From Deferrisomatales bacterium (GTDB lineage Bacteria; Desulfobacterota; Deferrisomatia; Deferrisomatales; JACRMM01): a DNA stretch of 50,286 nucleotides. This document shows positions 1 through 15,000 of the stretch, piece after piece. The position numbers were made by a program. Location: contig JAWSUI010000028.1 in assembly GCA_033551855.1 (NCBI GenBank), forward strand, positions 1 through 50,286. Direction: 5' to 3'. The number at the start of each line of letters is the position of its first letter. Within the stretch, counting starts at the first letter, position 1.

Positions 1-3000
1 CTTCTATATGACTGGTTCAATGGGGCTTGTCTCGTCCATAGGTCTTGGTCTTGCCCCTCGGGCCCGGGGAGCCGGCGCAGGCTGCGCTCCACGATCCAGC
101 CCTGCCCGTCGGGGTGGCGCACCCGCACCCACTCGCCCTGGGTCCCCAGGACCTCCACCTCGGTGTCCCGCGCCAAACGCCCGATCCTCGGAGCGCTCAG
201 ATCGGGTCCGCCGCGCACATTGACGGAGCCCTCCGGCCATGCGACCACCGCCCGGTCCGCCCACGCCGGCGCCGCTGCCGCGACCGCGAGGACGAGCACC
301 GCGGCCAGGACCACCGCACCGCGGAGCACCCTCACCGCGGCGCCCCCAGGACCTGGGTCAGCCGCGCCTGGAGCCGGTCCTTGAAGATGATGATCTCGGC
401 CTGCGCGAAGACCTCCCCGTTCAAGGAGACCTCGACGGGCTCCCCCGAGGGTTTGTGCGTGACCAGCAGGGAGCCCACACGAAGCGCCAGGAGGTCACGC
501 ACCCGGGTGCGGGTGCGTCCGATCTCCACGGCCAGCCGGAGCGGGACGTCCCCCAGCGCATCCCAGTCCCGGACCCCCTGTGGGCTGTCTCCCCGGCCCG
601 CCGTCGGGGACTGCCCCACCCTGGCCATCCGTGCTCCTCTCCGGAGGCGCAGCCTCCCCCGTGGGTTTCCGGCGGCAGGCCTCCTCCGCCGGCGCCTCCT
701 CCTTTACCATGCCGGGAAAGCGCATACAAGCGGGCCTGTCTGCCTGCATCCACCGGCTGGTCGCCAAGCGGAGTCCGGGAGCCCCTGCGTTTCGCCCCGC
801 GATCCGCGGCAATTCAAAGAGGTGCCCCAGCAGTCCCCGGTGCGCCGGGCTTCACCCGCTTGCGCCGGCCTCGTCGGGTCGGTGGATGCGGTGCGGGGCT
901 GCACTCCTGGGCTCCCGGACTCCGCCCCGCAATCTGCGGATTCTGGTCTGCCTGAATCCACCTCCAGCTCGGCGAGCGGGGTCCGGGAATCCAGCGCCCC
1001 CCGGGGCCGCGCGGGCCCTCACTGCCCGGGGCCGGACCTCCCCTGCTCCAGCCGCTGGGTGAGCTCCCGAACCCGATCCGCCGGCATGTGGTCGAAGATT
1101 CTTCCCACGTTGCGGCCGGGCAGCCGCTCGAGGATGGCCAGCGCCAGGTCGTCGTCCATCCCTTCCAGGGCCAGGGAAGCCTCCCGAGGCCTCATGGCGC
1201 CGTAGACCCGGGAGATCCGCTCGAGGCGCTCATCGACCAGCTTGTCCCGGCGGGCGATGTCGGCCTCCACGGCACGTCGCAGGGCCTGCAGCTTCTGCTC
1301 CTCTTCCGCGAGCACGTGCCGGGTCGCCTCGAGAGCGCGTTGGAGGGCCGCCAGGGACTCCTCCTGCCGCGCCAGCTCGATCTGCCGGAGCTCGATCTGC
1401 CGGTCCAGCTCCTCCAGGAGTCGCGCCCTGGCCTCAAGAGCCTCGGGGCCGTCGCGCAGGGCCGCAGGGGGCTGGGCGTGGGAGGGGGGGCAGGCCAAAG
1501 GGAGGAGGCAGAGGACGCCGCCGACGGCAGCCCGGGAGAGAAAGCGTCGGACCTCAGTGCCCACGGTCTTCCTCCCTGCGCCCCCGGTGTCGCGCGGCGG
1601 CGACCGCATCGATCCGGCAAGCCTCCCTTCGGCTCACGGCCGCGCGCCACGCGGCCTCGTCCCGCTCCCTGAGCTTCTCCAGGGCCTGGCGCGCCCGGTG
1701 GGCGTCGAGCACCGCCCGAGACGCGTCCTCGACCGCTCGAGAGGCGCCCTCCACGGCCTCTCTGGCTCGGCTCACTCGGCACCGCTGCAGGCCGGCGTAT
1801 CGGGAGTGCAGGCGCAGGGCCTCCGCATCCAACTCGTCCGTGCGTTTGAGGACGTCGACGTCCGATACGGCACGCCGCAGGTCCTCCTCCACGGCCTCCA
1901 GCCGGGCCCGCTCTCCTCGCAGGGTCTCCCGAGCCCGGGACAAGAACTGCTGTGCCACCTCCTCCTGCAGGCGGCGCACGGCGAGGACCCGTTCGAGCCG
2001 GAACACGAAGCCCACTCAAGACTCCTCGGGAAACAGGCCCAGGAGCTCCCCGCGGGCGGCCTCGAGGGGCCACCCCTCCTCCACGGCCTGGGTCAGAAAG
2101 GCCTCCAGGGAATCCCGCTTTCTCACGGCCTCGTCCACATCCGCGCTCGCACCCGGCTGGTAGGCTCCGATGCTGATGAGGTCCTCGGCGCCCCGATAGG
2201 CGGCCAGGAGCCTGCGCATCCGCCCTGCGGCCCGGGAGTGGCCTGGGGTGACGAGGTCCATCATGAGGCGGCTGTTGGAAGCCAGCACGTCCACGGCGGG
2301 GTAGTGGTCGCGGGCGGCGAGCGCCCGGGAGAGCACGACGTGGCCGTCCAGGACCGACCGGACCGTGTCGGCGACCGGTTCGCTCAGATCGTCGCCCTCG
2401 ACGAGCACGGTGTACAGGCCCGTGATGGACCCCGCGCCCCTCTCCCCCATCCCCGCCCGCTCCATCAGCCGCGGCAGGGCCGCAAACACGCTGGGAGTAT
2501 ACCCCTTGGTCGTCGGGGGTTCCCCGATGGCCAGTCCGACCTCCCGCAACGCCATGGCGAACCGCGTGACGGAATCCATCAGGAGCAGCACGTCACGCCC
2601 CTGGTCCCGAAAATACTCGGCCACCGTAGCGGCCACCAGGGCACCCCGAGCTTTGACCAGGGGAGACTTCTCCGACGTGCTCACGACCACCACCGAGCGC
2701 CGGAGCCCCTCCGCCCCCAAATCCCGCTCGATGAACTCGCGCACCTCTCGCCCCCGCTCCCCGATCAACGCGATGACGTTGACGTCGGCCGAGGTGTGGC
2801 GGGCGATCATCCCCAGCAGTACGCTCTTGCCCACCCCGCTGCCGGAGAAGATCCCCATCCGCTGCCCCTTGCCGCAGGTAAGCAGACCGTCGATGACCTT
2901 CACCCCCGTGGCAAGGGGCTCGCGGATCCGCTCCCGGGAGATGGGGTTGAGCTCGCGCCCGTAGAGGGGGTACTTGCGTCGGCAGGCGGGAGGGCCCCTC

Positions 3001-12000: not shown

Positions 12001-15000
12001 ACCCACCGCGTCGAGCAGGTTCTGGGTTTCCTGGCGGCCCAGGAGCTCGTGGGCGTTGCGGCGGACCACGTGGGCGAGATGGGCCGCGACCACCGCGGAG
12101 GGGCCCATCACGGTGCCCCCGAGCAGGCGGGCCTCCTCTGCCCGCCCTTCGGGGACCCACAGGGCCTCGCCCCCGGAGGCGGGATCCCGGGTGGGGATTC
12201 CCCCGATCCCGCTACCCAGGGCACCTGCGTCCACGACCAGCCGGTGGCCCTCCTTGAGCTCTCCCCTCCCGGCCTCCACCCCCTTGATCAGGATCACATA
12301 CTGCGCGGGGCGGAGCTGCAGATTGTCGCGGATCCGGACGGGGGGGACGACGATGCCCAGGTCCAGGGCCACCTGGCGCCGCAAGGACCGGACCCGCTCC
12401 AGGAGATCCCCCCCCTGGCCAGGATCCACCAGGTGCAGCAGCCCGTACCCCACCTCGAGCTCGAGGGCGTCGACGTGGAGGAGCTGGGTCACCTCCTCGA
12501 GGCCCTCGGGGGCTCGCGGCGTCTCCTGGGCAGCTCGCCGTCGAGCCGCCGCCTCGATTTCCCGGGCTTCCGCCTCCGTTCGCTGGCTCCGGTGCACGGC
12601 GTAGGCGGCCCCCCCCATGACGCCCGCGAGGATGCCGAAGGGCAGGAAGGGAAGTCCCGGGACCAGTCCCAGCAGAAGCAGCACCCCCGCCCCGACGCCC
12701 AGGGCGCCCGGGGCCTGGAGGAGCTGCCGCGGGAGCACCCGTCCCAGGCCCGACTGGCTGCCGGCCCGGCTGACGAGTATCCCGGCCGACGTGGAGATGA
12801 CGAGGGCGGGCATCTGGTGCACGAGGCCGTCGCCCACCGTGAGGGTGGTGTAGGTGGCCGCGGCGGCCGGGAGGGGCATCCCCTTCTGGAGCACTCCCAC
12901 CACCAGCCCGCCCAGGAGGTTGATGCCCGTGATCACCAGAGCCGCGACGGCGTCGCCCCGCACGAACTTACTGGCGCCGTCCATGGCCCCGTAGAAGTCC
13001 GCCTCGCTGGAGAGCTCCCGGCGGCGGCGGCCCGCCTCCTCCTCGCCGATCGCTCCGGCGTGGAGGTCGGCGTCGATCGCCATCTGCTTCCCGGGCAGGG
13101 AGTCCAGGGTGAAGCGCGCGCTCACCTCGGCGATGCGGGTCGTGCCCTTGGTGATGACCACGAAGTTGATCACCACGAGAATGAGGAAGATCACGATCCC
13201 CACGACGAAGTTCCCGCCCACGACGAAGTCGCCGAAGGCGGCGATGATACGGCTCACCGCCTCGGGCCCGTCGCTGCCCCGGGTGAGGATCAGGCGGGTG
13301 GAGCTGACGTTGAGCGCCAAGCGGAACAGGGTGACGATCAGCAGGGCACTGGGGAAGACGGAGAAGTCGAGGGGGCGCTCCGTGTACATCCCCAGGAGGA
13401 AGATGAGCACAGAGAGGCTGATGTTGAAGGCGAGGAGCAGATCGAGGGCGAACCTCGGCACGGGGACGACCATCAGGAAAACGATGCTCATCACCCCCGC
13501 CGCGACGAGGACACCGCTGTGACGGCTCAGCACGCTCGAAGCGGTAACGGCAATCCCTCGTTCCATCCTACGGTCGGGTGCCCCGGGGAACCGGGAACAG
13601 CGTCAGGTGCCGGGACTTTAGCACACCTTCCCCCCGGCCCGTAAGCCCCGGATCCAACAGCCCCGGATCCCCACCGCCACGGGGCCCTTGGGGGTCCTGC
13701 GGCAGGCTGCCGGGAAGGACCCTCTCGGGAGCCCGTGCCGGTTCCGCCAGGAGAGCCCGGCGCGGCCTTCCACCCTTTCGCGCCGGCAGATCCCGTCATT
13801 CCCGCGCGAGAGCGGACGCCGTCGGCCGGGCGGCCGGGACTCGCGGCACCGCCTGCCCGGAGCCGCCGCTAGGGGGCGATCTTCGTCCCCAGCACCTCCA
13901 GAAATCTTGCCAGCCACTCCGGGTGCGCGGGCCAGGCCGGCGCGGTCACCAGGTTCCCGTCCACGTGGGCCCGATCCGTGGGGATGTCCGCGTAGGACCC
14001 CCCGGCCCGTGCCACTTCCGGCCCCACCGCCGGGTACGCGCTGCAGGAGCGCCCCTGGAGCACGCCTGCTGCGGCGAGCACCTGGGCGCCGTGGCAGATG
14101 GCGGCCACGGGCTTGCCCTCCTCGAAGAAGTGGCGAACGACCTCGAGCACCTTGGGATTGAGCCGCAGGTACTCCGGTGCGCGGCCCCCCGGGATCACCA
14201 GCGCGTCGTAGTCCTTGGGCTTGACCTTCCTGAAGTCCGCGTTGAGCGCGAAGAGGTGCCCGGGCTTCTCCGAGTAGGTCTGGGCGCCGTCGAAGTCGTG
14301 GACCGCCGTGCGCACCGTCTCGCCGGCCTTCTTCTCCGGGCACACGGCGTGCATCCTGTGCCCCACCGCCTGCAGGGCCTGAAAGGGTACCATGGCCTCG
14401 TAGTCCTCCACGTAGTCACCCACCAGCATCAGGATCTTCTTTCCCGCCACGGCGTTCTCCTCTCTCCGGGGGTCGCGGCCCCCCGGGGTCCCGGGTCATC
14501 CCGCGGTCCGGAACTCTACCCCGGCCCTCCCCCGGGTCAATGCCCCCTCCTTCGCCCAGCAGCTCCCGAATGCCGTGGAAGAAGCTCCGGGCCTGGGCAC
14601 GCTCCTCGGCCTCGCTCCGCTCGGGCCGTGCCCCCCCCTGCTCGGTGAGCCCGAGCGGCACCTCGGAGAGGAAACGGGAGGGCACCGAAGCAGCGACGTG
14701 GCCCCTGCGGCGGCGGGTCCGTGCGTGGCAGAGCACCAGGCGCTCCCGGGCCCGCGTCATCCCCACGTAGCACAGCCGCCGCTCTTCCTCCAGGGCGGTC
14801 GCGGCCAGGTCGGCCCCCTTCACGAGGGGTAAGAGCCCCTCCTCCATTCCCGCCAGGAAGACCACCGGGAACTCCAGCCCCTTGGCAGAGTGGAGCGTCA
14901 TCAGAGCCACCTCGTCGCCCCCGTCCCCGTCCCGGTCGGCCGGGGGGTCGAGGCTCAGCCGCTCCACGAACAACCCCAGGTCCACCCGGCCCCCCACCCT

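What a model noticed while it worked through the whole genome (the two positions that open the first line are those of the whole stretch)
332..13566. Flagellar export gate, MS/C rings and stator kept without rod, hook, filament or chemotaxis genes
This genome keeps intact genes for the flagellar type III export gate (FlhA, FlhB, FliOPQR), ATPase (FliHIJ), MS ring (FliF), switch/C ring (FliG, FliM, two FliN), stator (MotAB), placement and control (FlhF, FleN, FliA, FlgM, FliW-CsrA, a PilZ gene behind fliN), but has no gene for FliE, rod, hook, L/P rings, junction, cap or flagellin, and none for MCPs, CheA or CheW. I read it as a working 'axle-less' flagellar core, kept by selection for another task (secretion into the periplasm, or a c-di-GMP-controlled rotary/signalling device), not as decay in progress. 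The same cut has arisen more than once in this family, which would make these bacteria a natural model for what the flagellar base d [...]
Evidence so far: Gene tables: core genes on C28:332-13566, C38:30040-35828, C14:31785-35389, C9:62504-64096, C18:36706-36999, all whole and of usual length. pfam.tsv has no Flg_bb_rod, Flg_bbr_C, FlgD, FliE, FlgH, FlgI, Flagellin_N/C, FliD, FliS, FliK, CheW, MCPsignal, H-kinase_dim. Six-frame DNA search: PF00460 (rod/hook) 0 matches here against 3-8 in 10 of 20 other genomes of the order; PF00669 (flagellin) 0 here, same 10 genomes positive; genome rated 100% complete. FlhA (PF00771) and FliG_C (PF01706) are present in 5 genomes that lack rod and flagellin: this one, G019 (same genus), G013-G015 (another genus; FlhA in pieces in G013), while the 6 genomes of family f2 lack FlhA too (0 of 6; FliG_C in 1 of 6) [...]
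(Added by a program. Inside this text positions count along the whole contig: contig position 1 is position 1 of the stretch shown here. "Call 12" and the like, gene names such as g00115 and contig names such as C1 are that model's own, and its searches are not shown. The text may have been shortened before it was handed on; [...] marks where a part breaks off. The agent that wrote the report below was given it as the finding of a first reader that could run no searches.)

Follow-up and report, generated by a model that had tools for sequence, protein, structure and literature searches.

The report
Axle-less flagellar motor kept by selection
These free-living bacteria have lost the drive shaft, hook and tail of the flagellum at least twice independently, yet natural selection still preserves the membrane motor and export gate, most likely because they now help control pili and surface-attachment genes rather than swimming.

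Summary
Observation confirmed. This genome and four relatives keep the export gate, ATPase, MS and C rings, stator, an E-ring-type protein, FlhF/FlhG and FliA/FlgM. Rod, hook, L/P-ring, junction and filament genes are gone, most at directly visible syntenic sites. A flagellated species nests among them, so the loss happened at least twice, probably three times. Selection after the loss is shown: dN/dS is 0.07-0.09 within genus g2, and in G019 the core is unbroken beside frameshifted rod pseudogenes. The stator is not relaxed; the gate is relaxed about 2.5-fold. Sigma-28-type promoters precede motAB, pilA, pilMNOPQ, mglBA, HD-GYP and PilZ genes. FlgM occurs in all 15 genomes with a gate and in none of the 6 without; FliA persists in 4 of 5 of those tested. 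Best reading (about 0.5): a signalling hub for a pilus/c-di-GMP programme. Against it: this genome has lost the FlhB cleavage motif, the FlhA chaperone site, the FlhG ATPase motifs and FliL. The FliG-without-rod pattern with flagellar FlhA appeared only in this family among 401 phylum genomes.

The parts
3..329 (-). 5' part of fliO (SH3 domain), cut by the contig end; the gene continues at the end of C38, where fliPQR-flhB follow
   Evidence: SH3_3 E 1.6e-14; G016 FliO residues 16-85 match here and 111-302 match the C38 end; an X1 contig runs 7.6 kb on to the left
332..628 (-). fliN (second C-ring FliN)
   Evidence: FliMN_C E 1e-16
629..1018 (-). deletion site of fliK-flgD-flgE-fliL; holds a high-copy repeat at about 739-933
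   Evidence: synteny; about 130 genomic matches to the repeat; no significant gene remnant
701..731 (-). sigma-70-like promoter motif of the former fliL operon, now in front of fliN-fliO-fliPQR-flhB
   Evidence: same motif upstream of fliL in G013, G014, G015, G016, G017, G019; position; promoter function is inferred
1019..1564 (-). E-ring-type protein (FlbB/FlgY/MotE/YlxF-like): N-terminal hydrophobic helix, long coiled coil, MgtE_N domain
   Evidence: MgtE_N 26.8 bits, cut-off 25.9; collar_FlbB E 8e-9, below cut-off; model pLDDT 84, best PDB hit a FliF-YlxF model at only E 0.016
1554..2015 (-). fliJ
2016..3353 (-). fliI ATPase, Walker motifs intact
   Evidence: 15 of 305 otherwise invariant columns changed, against 17 of 322 in flagellated G018
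3353..4072 (-). fliH (start codon uncertain)
4135..5145 (-). fliG; C-terminal domain like relatives, middle domain relaxed
5145..6683 (-). fliF (MS ring)
6684..7303 (-). deletion site of histidine kinase, sigma-54 regulator, flgB, flgC and fliE; holds a palindromic high-copy repeat at 7065-7278
   Evidence: synteny; about 140-180 genomic matches; fold z-score -6.4
6874..6905 (-). former flgB-operon promoter motif, now about 190 bases ahead of fliF
   Evidence: same motif precedes flgB in G018 and G019 and fliF in G013-G015; here a degenerate match, nhmmer E 0.05
7304..9307 (-). TPR protein with an N-terminal hydrophobic segment, probable periplasmic stator scaffold (PflA/MotK-like; inferred)
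   Evidence: TPR families; same position in all relatives; rank-2 fold match, and highest query TM-score listed (0.39), is a chain of the C. jejuni motor scaffold, among many unrelated TPR proteins
9304..10218 (-). flhG/fleN with degenerate P-loop and switch motifs in this genome only
   Evidence: 33 of 109 invariant columns changed against 5-6 in the other rod-less genomes
10215..11471 (-). flhF, GTPase motifs intact
11461..13566 (-). flhA; membrane part conserved, chaperone-docking residues changed (F464S and T495A, equal to Salmonella F459 and T490)

Best explanation
SHOWN: after swimming was abandoned, the inner-membrane half of the flagellum (gate, ATPase, MS ring, C ring, E-ring protein, TPR protein, stator, FlhF) stayed under purifying selection in at least two, probably three, lineages. 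INFERRED: it still assembles as a rod-less basal body and serves as a signalling hub for a surface lifestyle. Two linked outputs are likely. (1) The ion-conducting stator on the unloaded rotor feeds c-di-GMP signalling, as in hook or filament mutants of Vibrio cholerae and Pseudomonas aeruginosa. (2) The gate pumps FlgM, the only classical substrate left, into the periplasm and so licenses sigma-28, whose targets here are motAB, type IV pilus genes, MglBA, HD-GYP phosphodiesterases, PilZ proteins and cell-wall enzymes. Output 1 should hold in all five genomes. Output 2 is more likely in genus g2 than in this genome.
For: dN/dS on branches that lie wholly after the loss is 0.071-0.090 for 21 core genes; the three g2 genomes share their deletion junctions. 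In G019, 336 codons of rod/hook remnants carry 3 stops and 5-7 frameshifts (dN/dS 0.13, background 0.015). Its 5,922 core codons carry none, where 141-176 would be expected. Stator dN/dS is 0.039 in g2 against 0.042 in flagellated G008/G010, 2dlnL 0.0. The conserved MotB aspartate motif is kept (its role is recalled). Promoter motifs were kept while the genes behind them were deleted. The sigma-28 motif gave 29 promoter-like sites among 60 matches; seven wrong-spacer controls gave 1-5. It is conserved before motA in 5 of 5 genomes read, before pilA in 4 of 5 and before pilM in 4 of 4. pilMNOPQ and pilT genes are present. FlgM: one copy in 5 of 5 rod-less genomes, two or more in 10 of 10 flagellated, none in 6 of 6 gate-less; FliA is kept in 4 of 5 gate-less genomes tested. 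FliA-FlgM model: score 0.83, best control 0.00; the mark was reached by 116 of 157 solved and 2 of 215 mismatched pairs; runs agree in at least 84% of contacts; partner pLDDT at least 67. This is a textbook pair, so the pass may come from likeness. Precedents read: PMC7098655, PMC12288467, PMC7277350. In rod-hook-less Salmonella, FlhB C-terminal mutations allow FliK-independent FlgM export (PMC13344023), and FlhB is among the most changed gate proteins in G000 and g2.
Against: There are no expression, imaging or genetic data. The gate is relaxed (0.074 against 0.029, 2dlnL 46), as are placement and scaffold genes. This genome's FlhB has N269D (DPTR) and G019 has NPGH; in Salmonella N269A blocks late export (PMC13344023). 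FliK is absent from this genome and from the syntenic site in all five. The FlhA chaperone residues are changed in G000 and G019. FlhG motifs, FliL and the FliY middle part are lost here; PilZ is lost behind fliY in G014 and G015 and FliW at its site in G019. Family f2 keeps FliA with no basal body, so losing flgM is an easy way out, and f2 may be a single event. The sigma-28 control of pilus genes is also in flagellated relatives, so it is ancestral, not a new adaptation. No stator-linked diguanylate cyclase was identified.
Confidence: 0.5

Rival explanations
1. Staged decay. The core is on a slow path to total loss, as in family f2. Present constraint reflects a weak or fading role, or selection against harmful half-broken membrane proteins that are still expressed.
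For: Core dN/dS is about twice that of flagellated relatives while housekeeping genes are unchanged. Each lineage has shed different peripheral genes. This genome has lost several functional motifs. f2 shows the end state: fliA directly before ispDF in G001 and G002, and a lone motA in G003.
Against: Decay predicts stops, frameshifts and deletions. None was seen where 141-176 (G019), 216-270 (G014 plus G015) or 42-53 (this genome, if its excess dN/dS were neutral time) are expected. The stator is not relaxed. The promoter motifs are kept.
Confidence: 0.2
2. Polar landmark or division-site control. FlhF, FlhG, FliF, FliM and FliN are kept to block polar division, as in Campylobacter jejuni, or to mark the pole for pili.
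For: MinE in 0 of 21 genomes and MinC in 0 of 5. In C. jejuni flhF, flhG, fliF, fliM and fliN are needed while fliE and rpoN are not (PMC3228812, section 9), which matches what was deleted here. The FlhF GTPase domain is among the best conserved parts. mglBA carries a sigma-28-type promoter.
Against: FlhG has lost its ATPase motifs in this genome. C. jejuni hardly needs FliG or the gate for this task, yet both are conserved here, and so is the stator. f2 lives without Min and without the core.
Confidence: 0.15
3. Proto-injectisome. The core secretes non-flagellar proteins into the periplasm, like the first step proposed for injectisome evolution.
For: FliI, FliH, FliP and the FlhA membrane part are well conserved. 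Abby and Rocha (PMC3459982) propose such an intermediate. The loss of switch and chaperone sites would suit unswitched export.
Against: There is no rod, inner rod or needle, and no secretin or new gene in the clusters. The gate is the most relaxed module, and a secretion device would not need an unrelaxed stator or an E-ring. I did not search for type III signals.
Confidence: 0.1
4. Assembly or binning artefact: the axial genes lie on DNA missing from the bins.
For: All five are draft bins (70-100% complete). Both window junctions hold repeats that run X1 does not bridge. The flagellin site was not located.
Against: The same blocks are missing in five bins. Junctions are contiguous in four others, with decayed remnants in G019. 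MCP numbers fall from 10-29 to 0-2. FlhA and FlhB residues used for filament export have changed.
Confidence: 0.03

Closest known systems
Flagellar type III components of non-flagellated Lysobacter enzymogenes OH11 (PMC7277350)
   Same: Free-living, no flagellin; flhA, flhB, fliI and fliR are kept and are needed for type IV pilus twitching.
   Different: There the genes are scattered and the main text never mentions FliF, FliG, MotA or rod. Here the rotor, stator, E-ring protein and FliA/FlgM stay in their operons, with selection measured after the loss in independent lineages.
Buchnera hook-basal body (as summarised in PMC3459982)
   Same: Non-motile; a flagellar base is kept and proposed to serve another task.
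   Different: An endosymbiont. It keeps rod, rings and hook (recalled, not read here); here the cut is at FliE, below the rod.
Stator-dependent c-di-GMP response of hook or filament mutants in Vibrio cholerae (PMC7098655) and Pseudomonas aeruginosa (PMC12288467)
   Same: A motor without its outer parts signals through the stators (and FliG in P. aeruginosa) to c-di-GMP, pili and biofilm.
   Different: Those are laboratory mutants that still have a rod. Here the state is fixed in evolution, the rod is gone too, and the signalling is only inferred.
FlhG/FlhF/MS-ring/C-ring division-site control in Campylobacter jejuni (PMC3228812)
   Same: No Min system; needs FlhF, FlhG, FliF, FliM and FliN but not FliE or sigma-54.
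   Different: C. jejuni is flagellated. FlhG is degenerate in this genome, and the stator and gate are also conserved here.
Myxococcales secretin-less non-flagellar T3SS (PMC3459982)
   Same: A T3SS without an outer conduit in free-living deltaproteobacteria, once read as a relic.
   Different: It belongs to the injectisome lineage and has an inner rod protein. The system here is flagellar by gene tree and keeps FliG, FliM, MotAB and FlhF.
Salmonella rod-hook deletion strains that export FlgM into the periplasm (PMC13344023)
   Same: No rod or hook; FliK dispensable; FlhB C-terminal changes open late export.
   Different: Engineered, and it needs FlhB cleavage or removal of the cleaved domain, which this genome's DPTR motif puts in doubt.

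Membership tests
Complete motile flagellum | Rod and hook genes (fliE, flgBCFG, flgDE) | tested here: not met
Complete motile flagellum | Flagellin, cap and junction genes | tested here: not met
Complete motile flagellum | Rotor (FliF, FliG, FliM, FliN) and stator (MotA, MotB) with open frames and conserved motifs | tested here: met
Flagellar type III export apparatus | FlhA, FlhB, FliPQR, FliHIJ of flagellar type, vertically inherited | tested here: met
   flagellar tree agrees with the housekeeping tree
Flagellar type III export apparatus | FlhB autocleavage motif (Asn-Pro) for the switch to late substrates | tested here: not met
   DPTR here; Asn-Pro kept in G019, in g2 and in 10 of 10 flagellated genomes
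Flagellar type III export apparatus | Actual protein export | not testable with these tools
   no expression or secretion data
Non-flagellar T3SS (injectisome, including the Myxococcales type) | Sct-type rather than Fli/Flh-type core; no FliG, FliM or Mot | tested here: not met
   FliP, FliQ, FliR and FlhB score higher on flagellar than on Sct models; FliG, FliM and MotAB are present
Non-flagellar T3SS (injectisome, including the Myxococcales type) | Inner rod, needle or secretin in the locus | tested here: not met
   no such gene in the clusters; the genome's secretin matches found with a PilQ query lie elsewhere
Buchnera-type hook-basal body | Rod, L/P rings and hook kept (feature recalled) | tested here: not met
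C. jejuni-type FlhG division control | No Min system | tested here: met
   MinE 0 of 21, MinC 0 of 5
C. jejuni-type FlhG division control | FlhG with intact ATPase motifs | tested here: not met
   broken here, intact in the other four rod-less genomes
C. jejuni-type FlhG division control | Minicells on deletion | not testable with these tools
   needs a culture
Lysobacter-type co-option for twitching | Type IV pilus machinery present | tested here: met
   pilMNOPQ, pilT paralogues and three pilins
Lysobacter-type co-option for twitching | Twitching lost in gate mutants | not testable with these tools
   uncultured
Decaying pseudogene cluster | dN/dS near 1, with stops and frameshifts | tested here: not met
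E-ring proteins (FlgY/FlbB/MotE) | C-terminal MgtE_N domain plus structural likeness (PMC13023049) | tested here: inconclusive
   MgtE_N just over its cut-off; no fold match at E 0.001 or better, best hit a FliF-YlxF model

The most novel reading that the evidence does not exclude
A complete ion-driven flagellar rotor, stator and export gate assemble in the membrane with no axle and have been co-opted, repeatedly in one family, as a dedicated signalling organelle. It reads ion flux or envelope state and sets sigma-28 and c-di-GMP output for type IV pili. It would be a natural, stable rotary machine whose job is information rather than motion or construction.
Probability: 0.3. Interest if true: 0.88.

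Novelty: new variant of a known kind. Interest (0 to 1): 0.68.

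Why it matters
[quoted passage not shown] It notes rotor genes without filament in 11% of non-motile species and cannot tell relic from function or give the order of loss (PMC12199754). 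This family gives a replicated natural case, with an internal neutral control, showing that the rod-less half is under selection and which modules are held tightest: stator and rotor more than gate. It orders lineages from fully flagellated, through recent loss (G019) and older loss (g2, G000), to total loss with FliA kept (f2). It supplies natural FlhA and FlhB alleles from gates with no rod, hook or FliK, which can be tested against current models of the export switch. It also warns that FlhA, FliG or MotA in a metagenome bin do not imply motility.

Tried and rejected
1) Expression: no RNA holder was listed; this says nothing either way. Only one DNA run (X1) was laid; it may not be independent of the assembly, and it does not bridge the repeats. 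2) An eroded fliE or flgBC remnant in the window gap: alignment scores were within the shuffled range and nhmmer gave E 0.2 or worse, so none is claimed, although my notebook had noted one. 3) Adaptive convergence of the gate between this genome and g2: many identical changes (FliQ 5 of 6), but housekeeping genes show greater overlap enrichment (8.3-fold against 3.6-fold); that control includes genes with as few as three flagellated taxa. Not supported; FliQ remains a curiosity. 4) Gene transfer from g2: four-fold sites in fliPQR-flhB are closer to G019 and G018 (0.53, 0.50) than to G015 (0.44). The protein tree of these genes prefers G000+g2 by 8 lnL, not significant. 5) A single origin of the loss: monophyly of the rod-less genomes is rejected by housekeeping genes (AU 2e-5) and by three flagellar gene sets, but not by five others. 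6) A second FlgM as a family-specific pre-adaptation: all flagellated members of the order have it. 7) The window's kinase and sigma-54 pair at 22026-24600 as the moved flagellar regulator: 41% identity, against 76% between true orthologues. 8) The same pattern elsewhere in the phylum: of the 5 FliG-positive, rod-negative genomes, G101 and G137 lack FlhA. G180's FlhA-family gene sits beside fliQ/R/flhB-like genes and reads as injectisome-type by my inspection; this was not tested by a tree. 9) Sequence searches of the PDB for the TPR and E-ring proteins gave nothing specific; the Atlas gave generic TPR clusters. 10) The codon fit on non-informational housekeeping genes did not converge on long branches and was not used. 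11) Literature: ten searches found no report of this pattern in this group. The library is open-access only, and no supplements were read; those of PMC12199754 list partial gene sets and may include such genomes.

Full report
1. What the window holds. The window is contig C28 of a 4.24-Mb, 132-contig bin rated 100% complete with 4.2% contamination. The closest named FlhA record is labelled Thermodesulfobacteriota (79% identity). That the order is Deferrisomatales is my recall from gene order and G+C content; no call tested it. On the minus strand lie flhA, flhF, flhG, a TPR gene, a 620-base gap, fliF, fliG, fliH, fliI, fliJ, an MgtE_N gene, a 390-base gap, fliN and the start of fliO. FliO continues at the end of C38 with fliPQR, flhB, a sigma-54-activator-like gene, fliW and csrA. 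fliA-fliM-fliY-pilZ, motAB and flgM lie elsewhere.

2. The absences are real. Of 64 proteins from flagellated relatives searched against the whole assembly, all 27 rod, hook, ring, junction, filament, chaperone and FliL queries found nothing better than E 0.13. Family searches agree: PF00460 in 10 of 21 genomes of the order and FlhA in 15 of 21. The five genomes with FlhA but no rod are this one, G019 (same genus) and G013-G015 (genus g2). Comparison with G016, G017 and G018 shows three deleted blocks at the same places in all five. MCP genes fall from 10-29 to 0-2. The weak point is that both window gaps contain a high-copy repeat and that run X1's contigs break there. The other four genomes are contiguous across the same junctions.

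3. How often. Housekeeping and flagellar trees agree: G000 and G019 are sisters, the fully flagellated G018 is next, and g2 is outside. Monophyly of the rod-less genomes is rejected by housekeeping genes, AU 2e-5. So there were at least two losses. G019 still carries broken flgB, flgC, fliE and flgE. Their dN/dS on the G019 branch is 0.13; a value of 1 is rejected by 79 lnL. They were therefore inactivated late, about 0.16 synonymous substitutions per site ago on a branch of about 1.1-1.4, after the split from this genome, which points to a third loss. One complication: G000 and G019 share FlhA F464S and T495A, two of the three Salmonella residues whose mutation weakens chaperone binding (numbering; PMC5789064, section 6). 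Two such sites among 6 shared changes in 400 invariant columns has P = 6e-4. Filament export may thus have been lost in their common ancestor, with rod and hook kept longer in G019. I could not resolve this; no flgF-flgL or flagellin remnants were found in any of the five.

4. How rare. In 401 genomes of the phylum (at least 90% complete), 248 have FliG_N and 253 the rod/hook motif. Five have FliG without rod. Two are from this family, two lack FlhA and one appears to carry an injectisome-type gene. This is a sample of the phylum, not a census.

5. Selection after the loss. I fitted a codon model of my own (GY94 type, empirical codon frequencies) to tblastn-anchored alignments. Codons near indels and windows under 36% identity were masked, which lowers dN/dS somewhat. 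Rows dropped as mis-hits or frameshifted: G015 nusG, G014 and G015 phaC, G013 trpA, trpB and rpoB, G014 rpoB, and non-orthologous flgM. Synonymous sites on long branches are near saturation, so only short and medium branches are compared. For 21 core genes (6,315 codons): G014 0.085, G015 0.071, their stem 0.090, G013 0.079; flagellated G008 0.055 and G010 0.039; G000 0.058, G019 0.031, flagellated G018 0.027. Housekeeping genes give 0.022-0.031 on the same branches, and 0.049 in G013. The g2 branches lie wholly after the loss because the three genomes share their junctions. At the lesion rate of the G019 pseudogenes, neutral cores would carry 141-176 (G019), 216-270 (G014 plus G015) or 42-53 (G000) stops and frameshifts. 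None was seen; the one stop flagged in G014 and G015 is the natural end of FlhB. G013 has frameshifts in flhA, TPR and the sigma-54-like gene. I read these as assembly indels, since its housekeeping genes also aligned with stops, and left it out of the count; this is inference.

6. Which part is held. By module, g2 against flagellated G008/G010: stator 0.039 against 0.042 (2dlnL 0.0); rotor 0.056 against 0.037 (3.7); gate and ATPase 0.074 against 0.029 (46); placement 0.089 against 0.041 (9.7); scaffold 0.160 against 0.093 (12); housekeeping 0.037 against 0.036. The g2 stator figure rests mostly on MotA. Columns invariant in flagellated relatives change least in MotA, FliI, FliH, the FlhA membrane part, FliP and the FlhF GTPase domain. 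They change most in FlhB, FliR, the FliG and FliM middle domains and FliN. The MgtE_N protein and the TPR protein are kept in all five. MgtE_N marks E-ring proteins that surround the MS ring and link to stator scaffolds, and their partners are TPR proteins (PMC13023049, passages). My fold searches give only weak support for these assignments.

7. The wiring. The promoter motifs of the deleted flgB and fliL genes survive in front of fliF and fliN. A sigma-28-type motif, derived from flagellin, flgM and motA upstream regions, gives 29 promoter-like sites among 60 matches in this genome; seven wrong-spacer controls give 1-5. Genes behind these sites, or next in their operons, include motA, fliW, a cluster of three pilins, a minor-pilin operon, mglB-mglA, a PilT-type ATPase, three HD-domain proteins, three PilZ proteins, two lytic transglycosylases and an M23-bactofilin pair (I scanned 20 of these regions). 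The motif is conserved before pilA in 4 of 5 genomes and before pilM in 4 of 4. Strict-pattern counts are 35 in G018, 13-14 in three rod-less relatives and 12 in gate-less G005, whose reversed control gave 5. FlgM and the gate occur together in 15 of 21 genomes and are both missing in 6 of 21, while FliA is kept in 4 of 5 gate-less genomes tested. The retained FlgM is predicted to bind FliA (0.83, best control 0.00; a textbook pair).

8. How it most likely works. Shown: the deletions, their independence, continued purifying selection and an unrelaxed stator. Inferred: assembly of a rod-less basal body and its use as a signalling hub. In V. cholerae and P. aeruginosa, mutants without filament or hook-filament junction raise c-di-GMP through their stators (PMC7098655, passages; PMC12288467, abstract). 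In Lysobacter, leftover gate genes are needed for twitching (PMC7277350, results read). In rod-hook-less Salmonella, FlhB C-terminal mutations allow FliK-independent export of FlgM to the periplasm (PMC13344023, passages). These make both outputs plausible. I put the hub at 0.5, staged decay at 0.2, polar or division control at 0.15, general secretion at 0.1 and artefact at 0.03.

9. What speaks against it. This genome is the most eroded. FlhB reads DPTR where relatives have Asn-Pro, and in Salmonella N269A blocks late export. FlhG has lost its P-loop lysines and switch residues. FliL is gone and FliY is cut to 138 residues. FlgM export is therefore doubtful here and likelier in g2, where these motifs are intact. 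Family f2 shows that the whole core can go once flgM goes, and it may be a single event. The sigma-28 control of pili is ancestral. No cyclase partner was found, and there are no expression data.

10. Comparison and verdict. It is a flagellar basal body by descent, not an injectisome and not a Buchnera-type hook-basal body. It works, if at all, most like the signalling state of outer-part mutants and the Lysobacter case. Co-option of flagellar leftovers is known. A rod-less rotor-stator-gate fixed repeatedly in free-living bacteria, with selection measured after the loss, was not found in ten searches. Papers seen: passages of PMC12199754, PMC13685792, PMC3459982, PMC13344023, PMC7098655 and PMC13023049; passages and one section each of PMC3228812 and PMC5789064; part of the methods, the results and passages of PMC7277350; abstracts of PMC9380563 and PMC12288467; no supplements. 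PMC13685792 describes the usual outcome in a related group, loss of all flagellar genes as one block. Verdict: new variant of a known kind, interest 0.68.

Noticed in passing
window 7065-7278 and 739-933; C14:31680-31840: High-copy intergenic repeats (about 110-180 genomic matches each) sit in three of the four gaps examined. The one at 7065-7278 folds into a long hairpin (z -6.4), like a miniature inverted-repeat element.
   Followed up: partly
L004:6707-7000 and L336-L345: All 10 flagellated genomes of the order carry two FlgM paralogues, one in the flg cluster and one elsewhere. The rod-less genomes keep only the second, which lies beside trpA and has a sigma-70-like rather than sigma-28-like upstream motif.
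   Followed up: yes
L346-L349 (family f2): Gate-less f2 genomes keep a FliA orthologue (64-68% identity) without FlgM; in G001 and G002 it lies directly before ispDF, where fliM-fliY-pilZ used to be. A sigma-28 without a flagellum.
   Followed up: partly
L088:434-1228 (G003): A lone motA (61% identity) in an f2 genome, with no motB behind it.
   Followed up: no
L001:14248-14517 (fliQ) against G014/G015: FliQ of this genome and of genus g2 share five identical changes at columns invariant in flagellated relatives (I35V, S36G, S83G, F84L, F87L), absent from G019. The genome-wide control did not show special convergence.
   Followed up: partly
window 3-329 and end of C38: FliO in this order carries an N-terminal SH3 domain.
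   Followed up: no
L065:5426-8298, L067:6635-9508, L068:12057-15471: Genus g2 keeps two cheR genes (and a cheW in G013) in the cluster although cheA and cheB are deleted there; G013 also has an MCP-CheW-CheY-CheA cluster upstream of flhA.
   Followed up: no
L001:11015-11923: A sigma-54-activator-like gene with a partial AAA domain and a sigma-28-type promoter is kept in all five rod-less genomes, while the che genes around it were deleted in G000 and G019.
   Followed up: no
L073:1-400, L071:14898-15120, L069:14910-15130: A long leader of about 220 bases before the second flagellin gene is visibly conserved among G016, G017 and G018; possibly a structured RNA or a CsrA target.
   Followed up: no
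window 32298-34004: RpiB fused to serine hydroxymethyltransferase in one 568-residue frame.
   Followed up: no
G027, G067, G160, G395 (genus g19): These show only 3 rod/hook motif matches instead of the usual 5-6, and their congener G101 has FliG without rod or FlhA; possibly another reducing lineage.
   Followed up: no
L002:6289-7254: An HAF-repeat gene lies upstream of fliA in G000, G019, G014 and G015 but not in G018.
   Followed up: no
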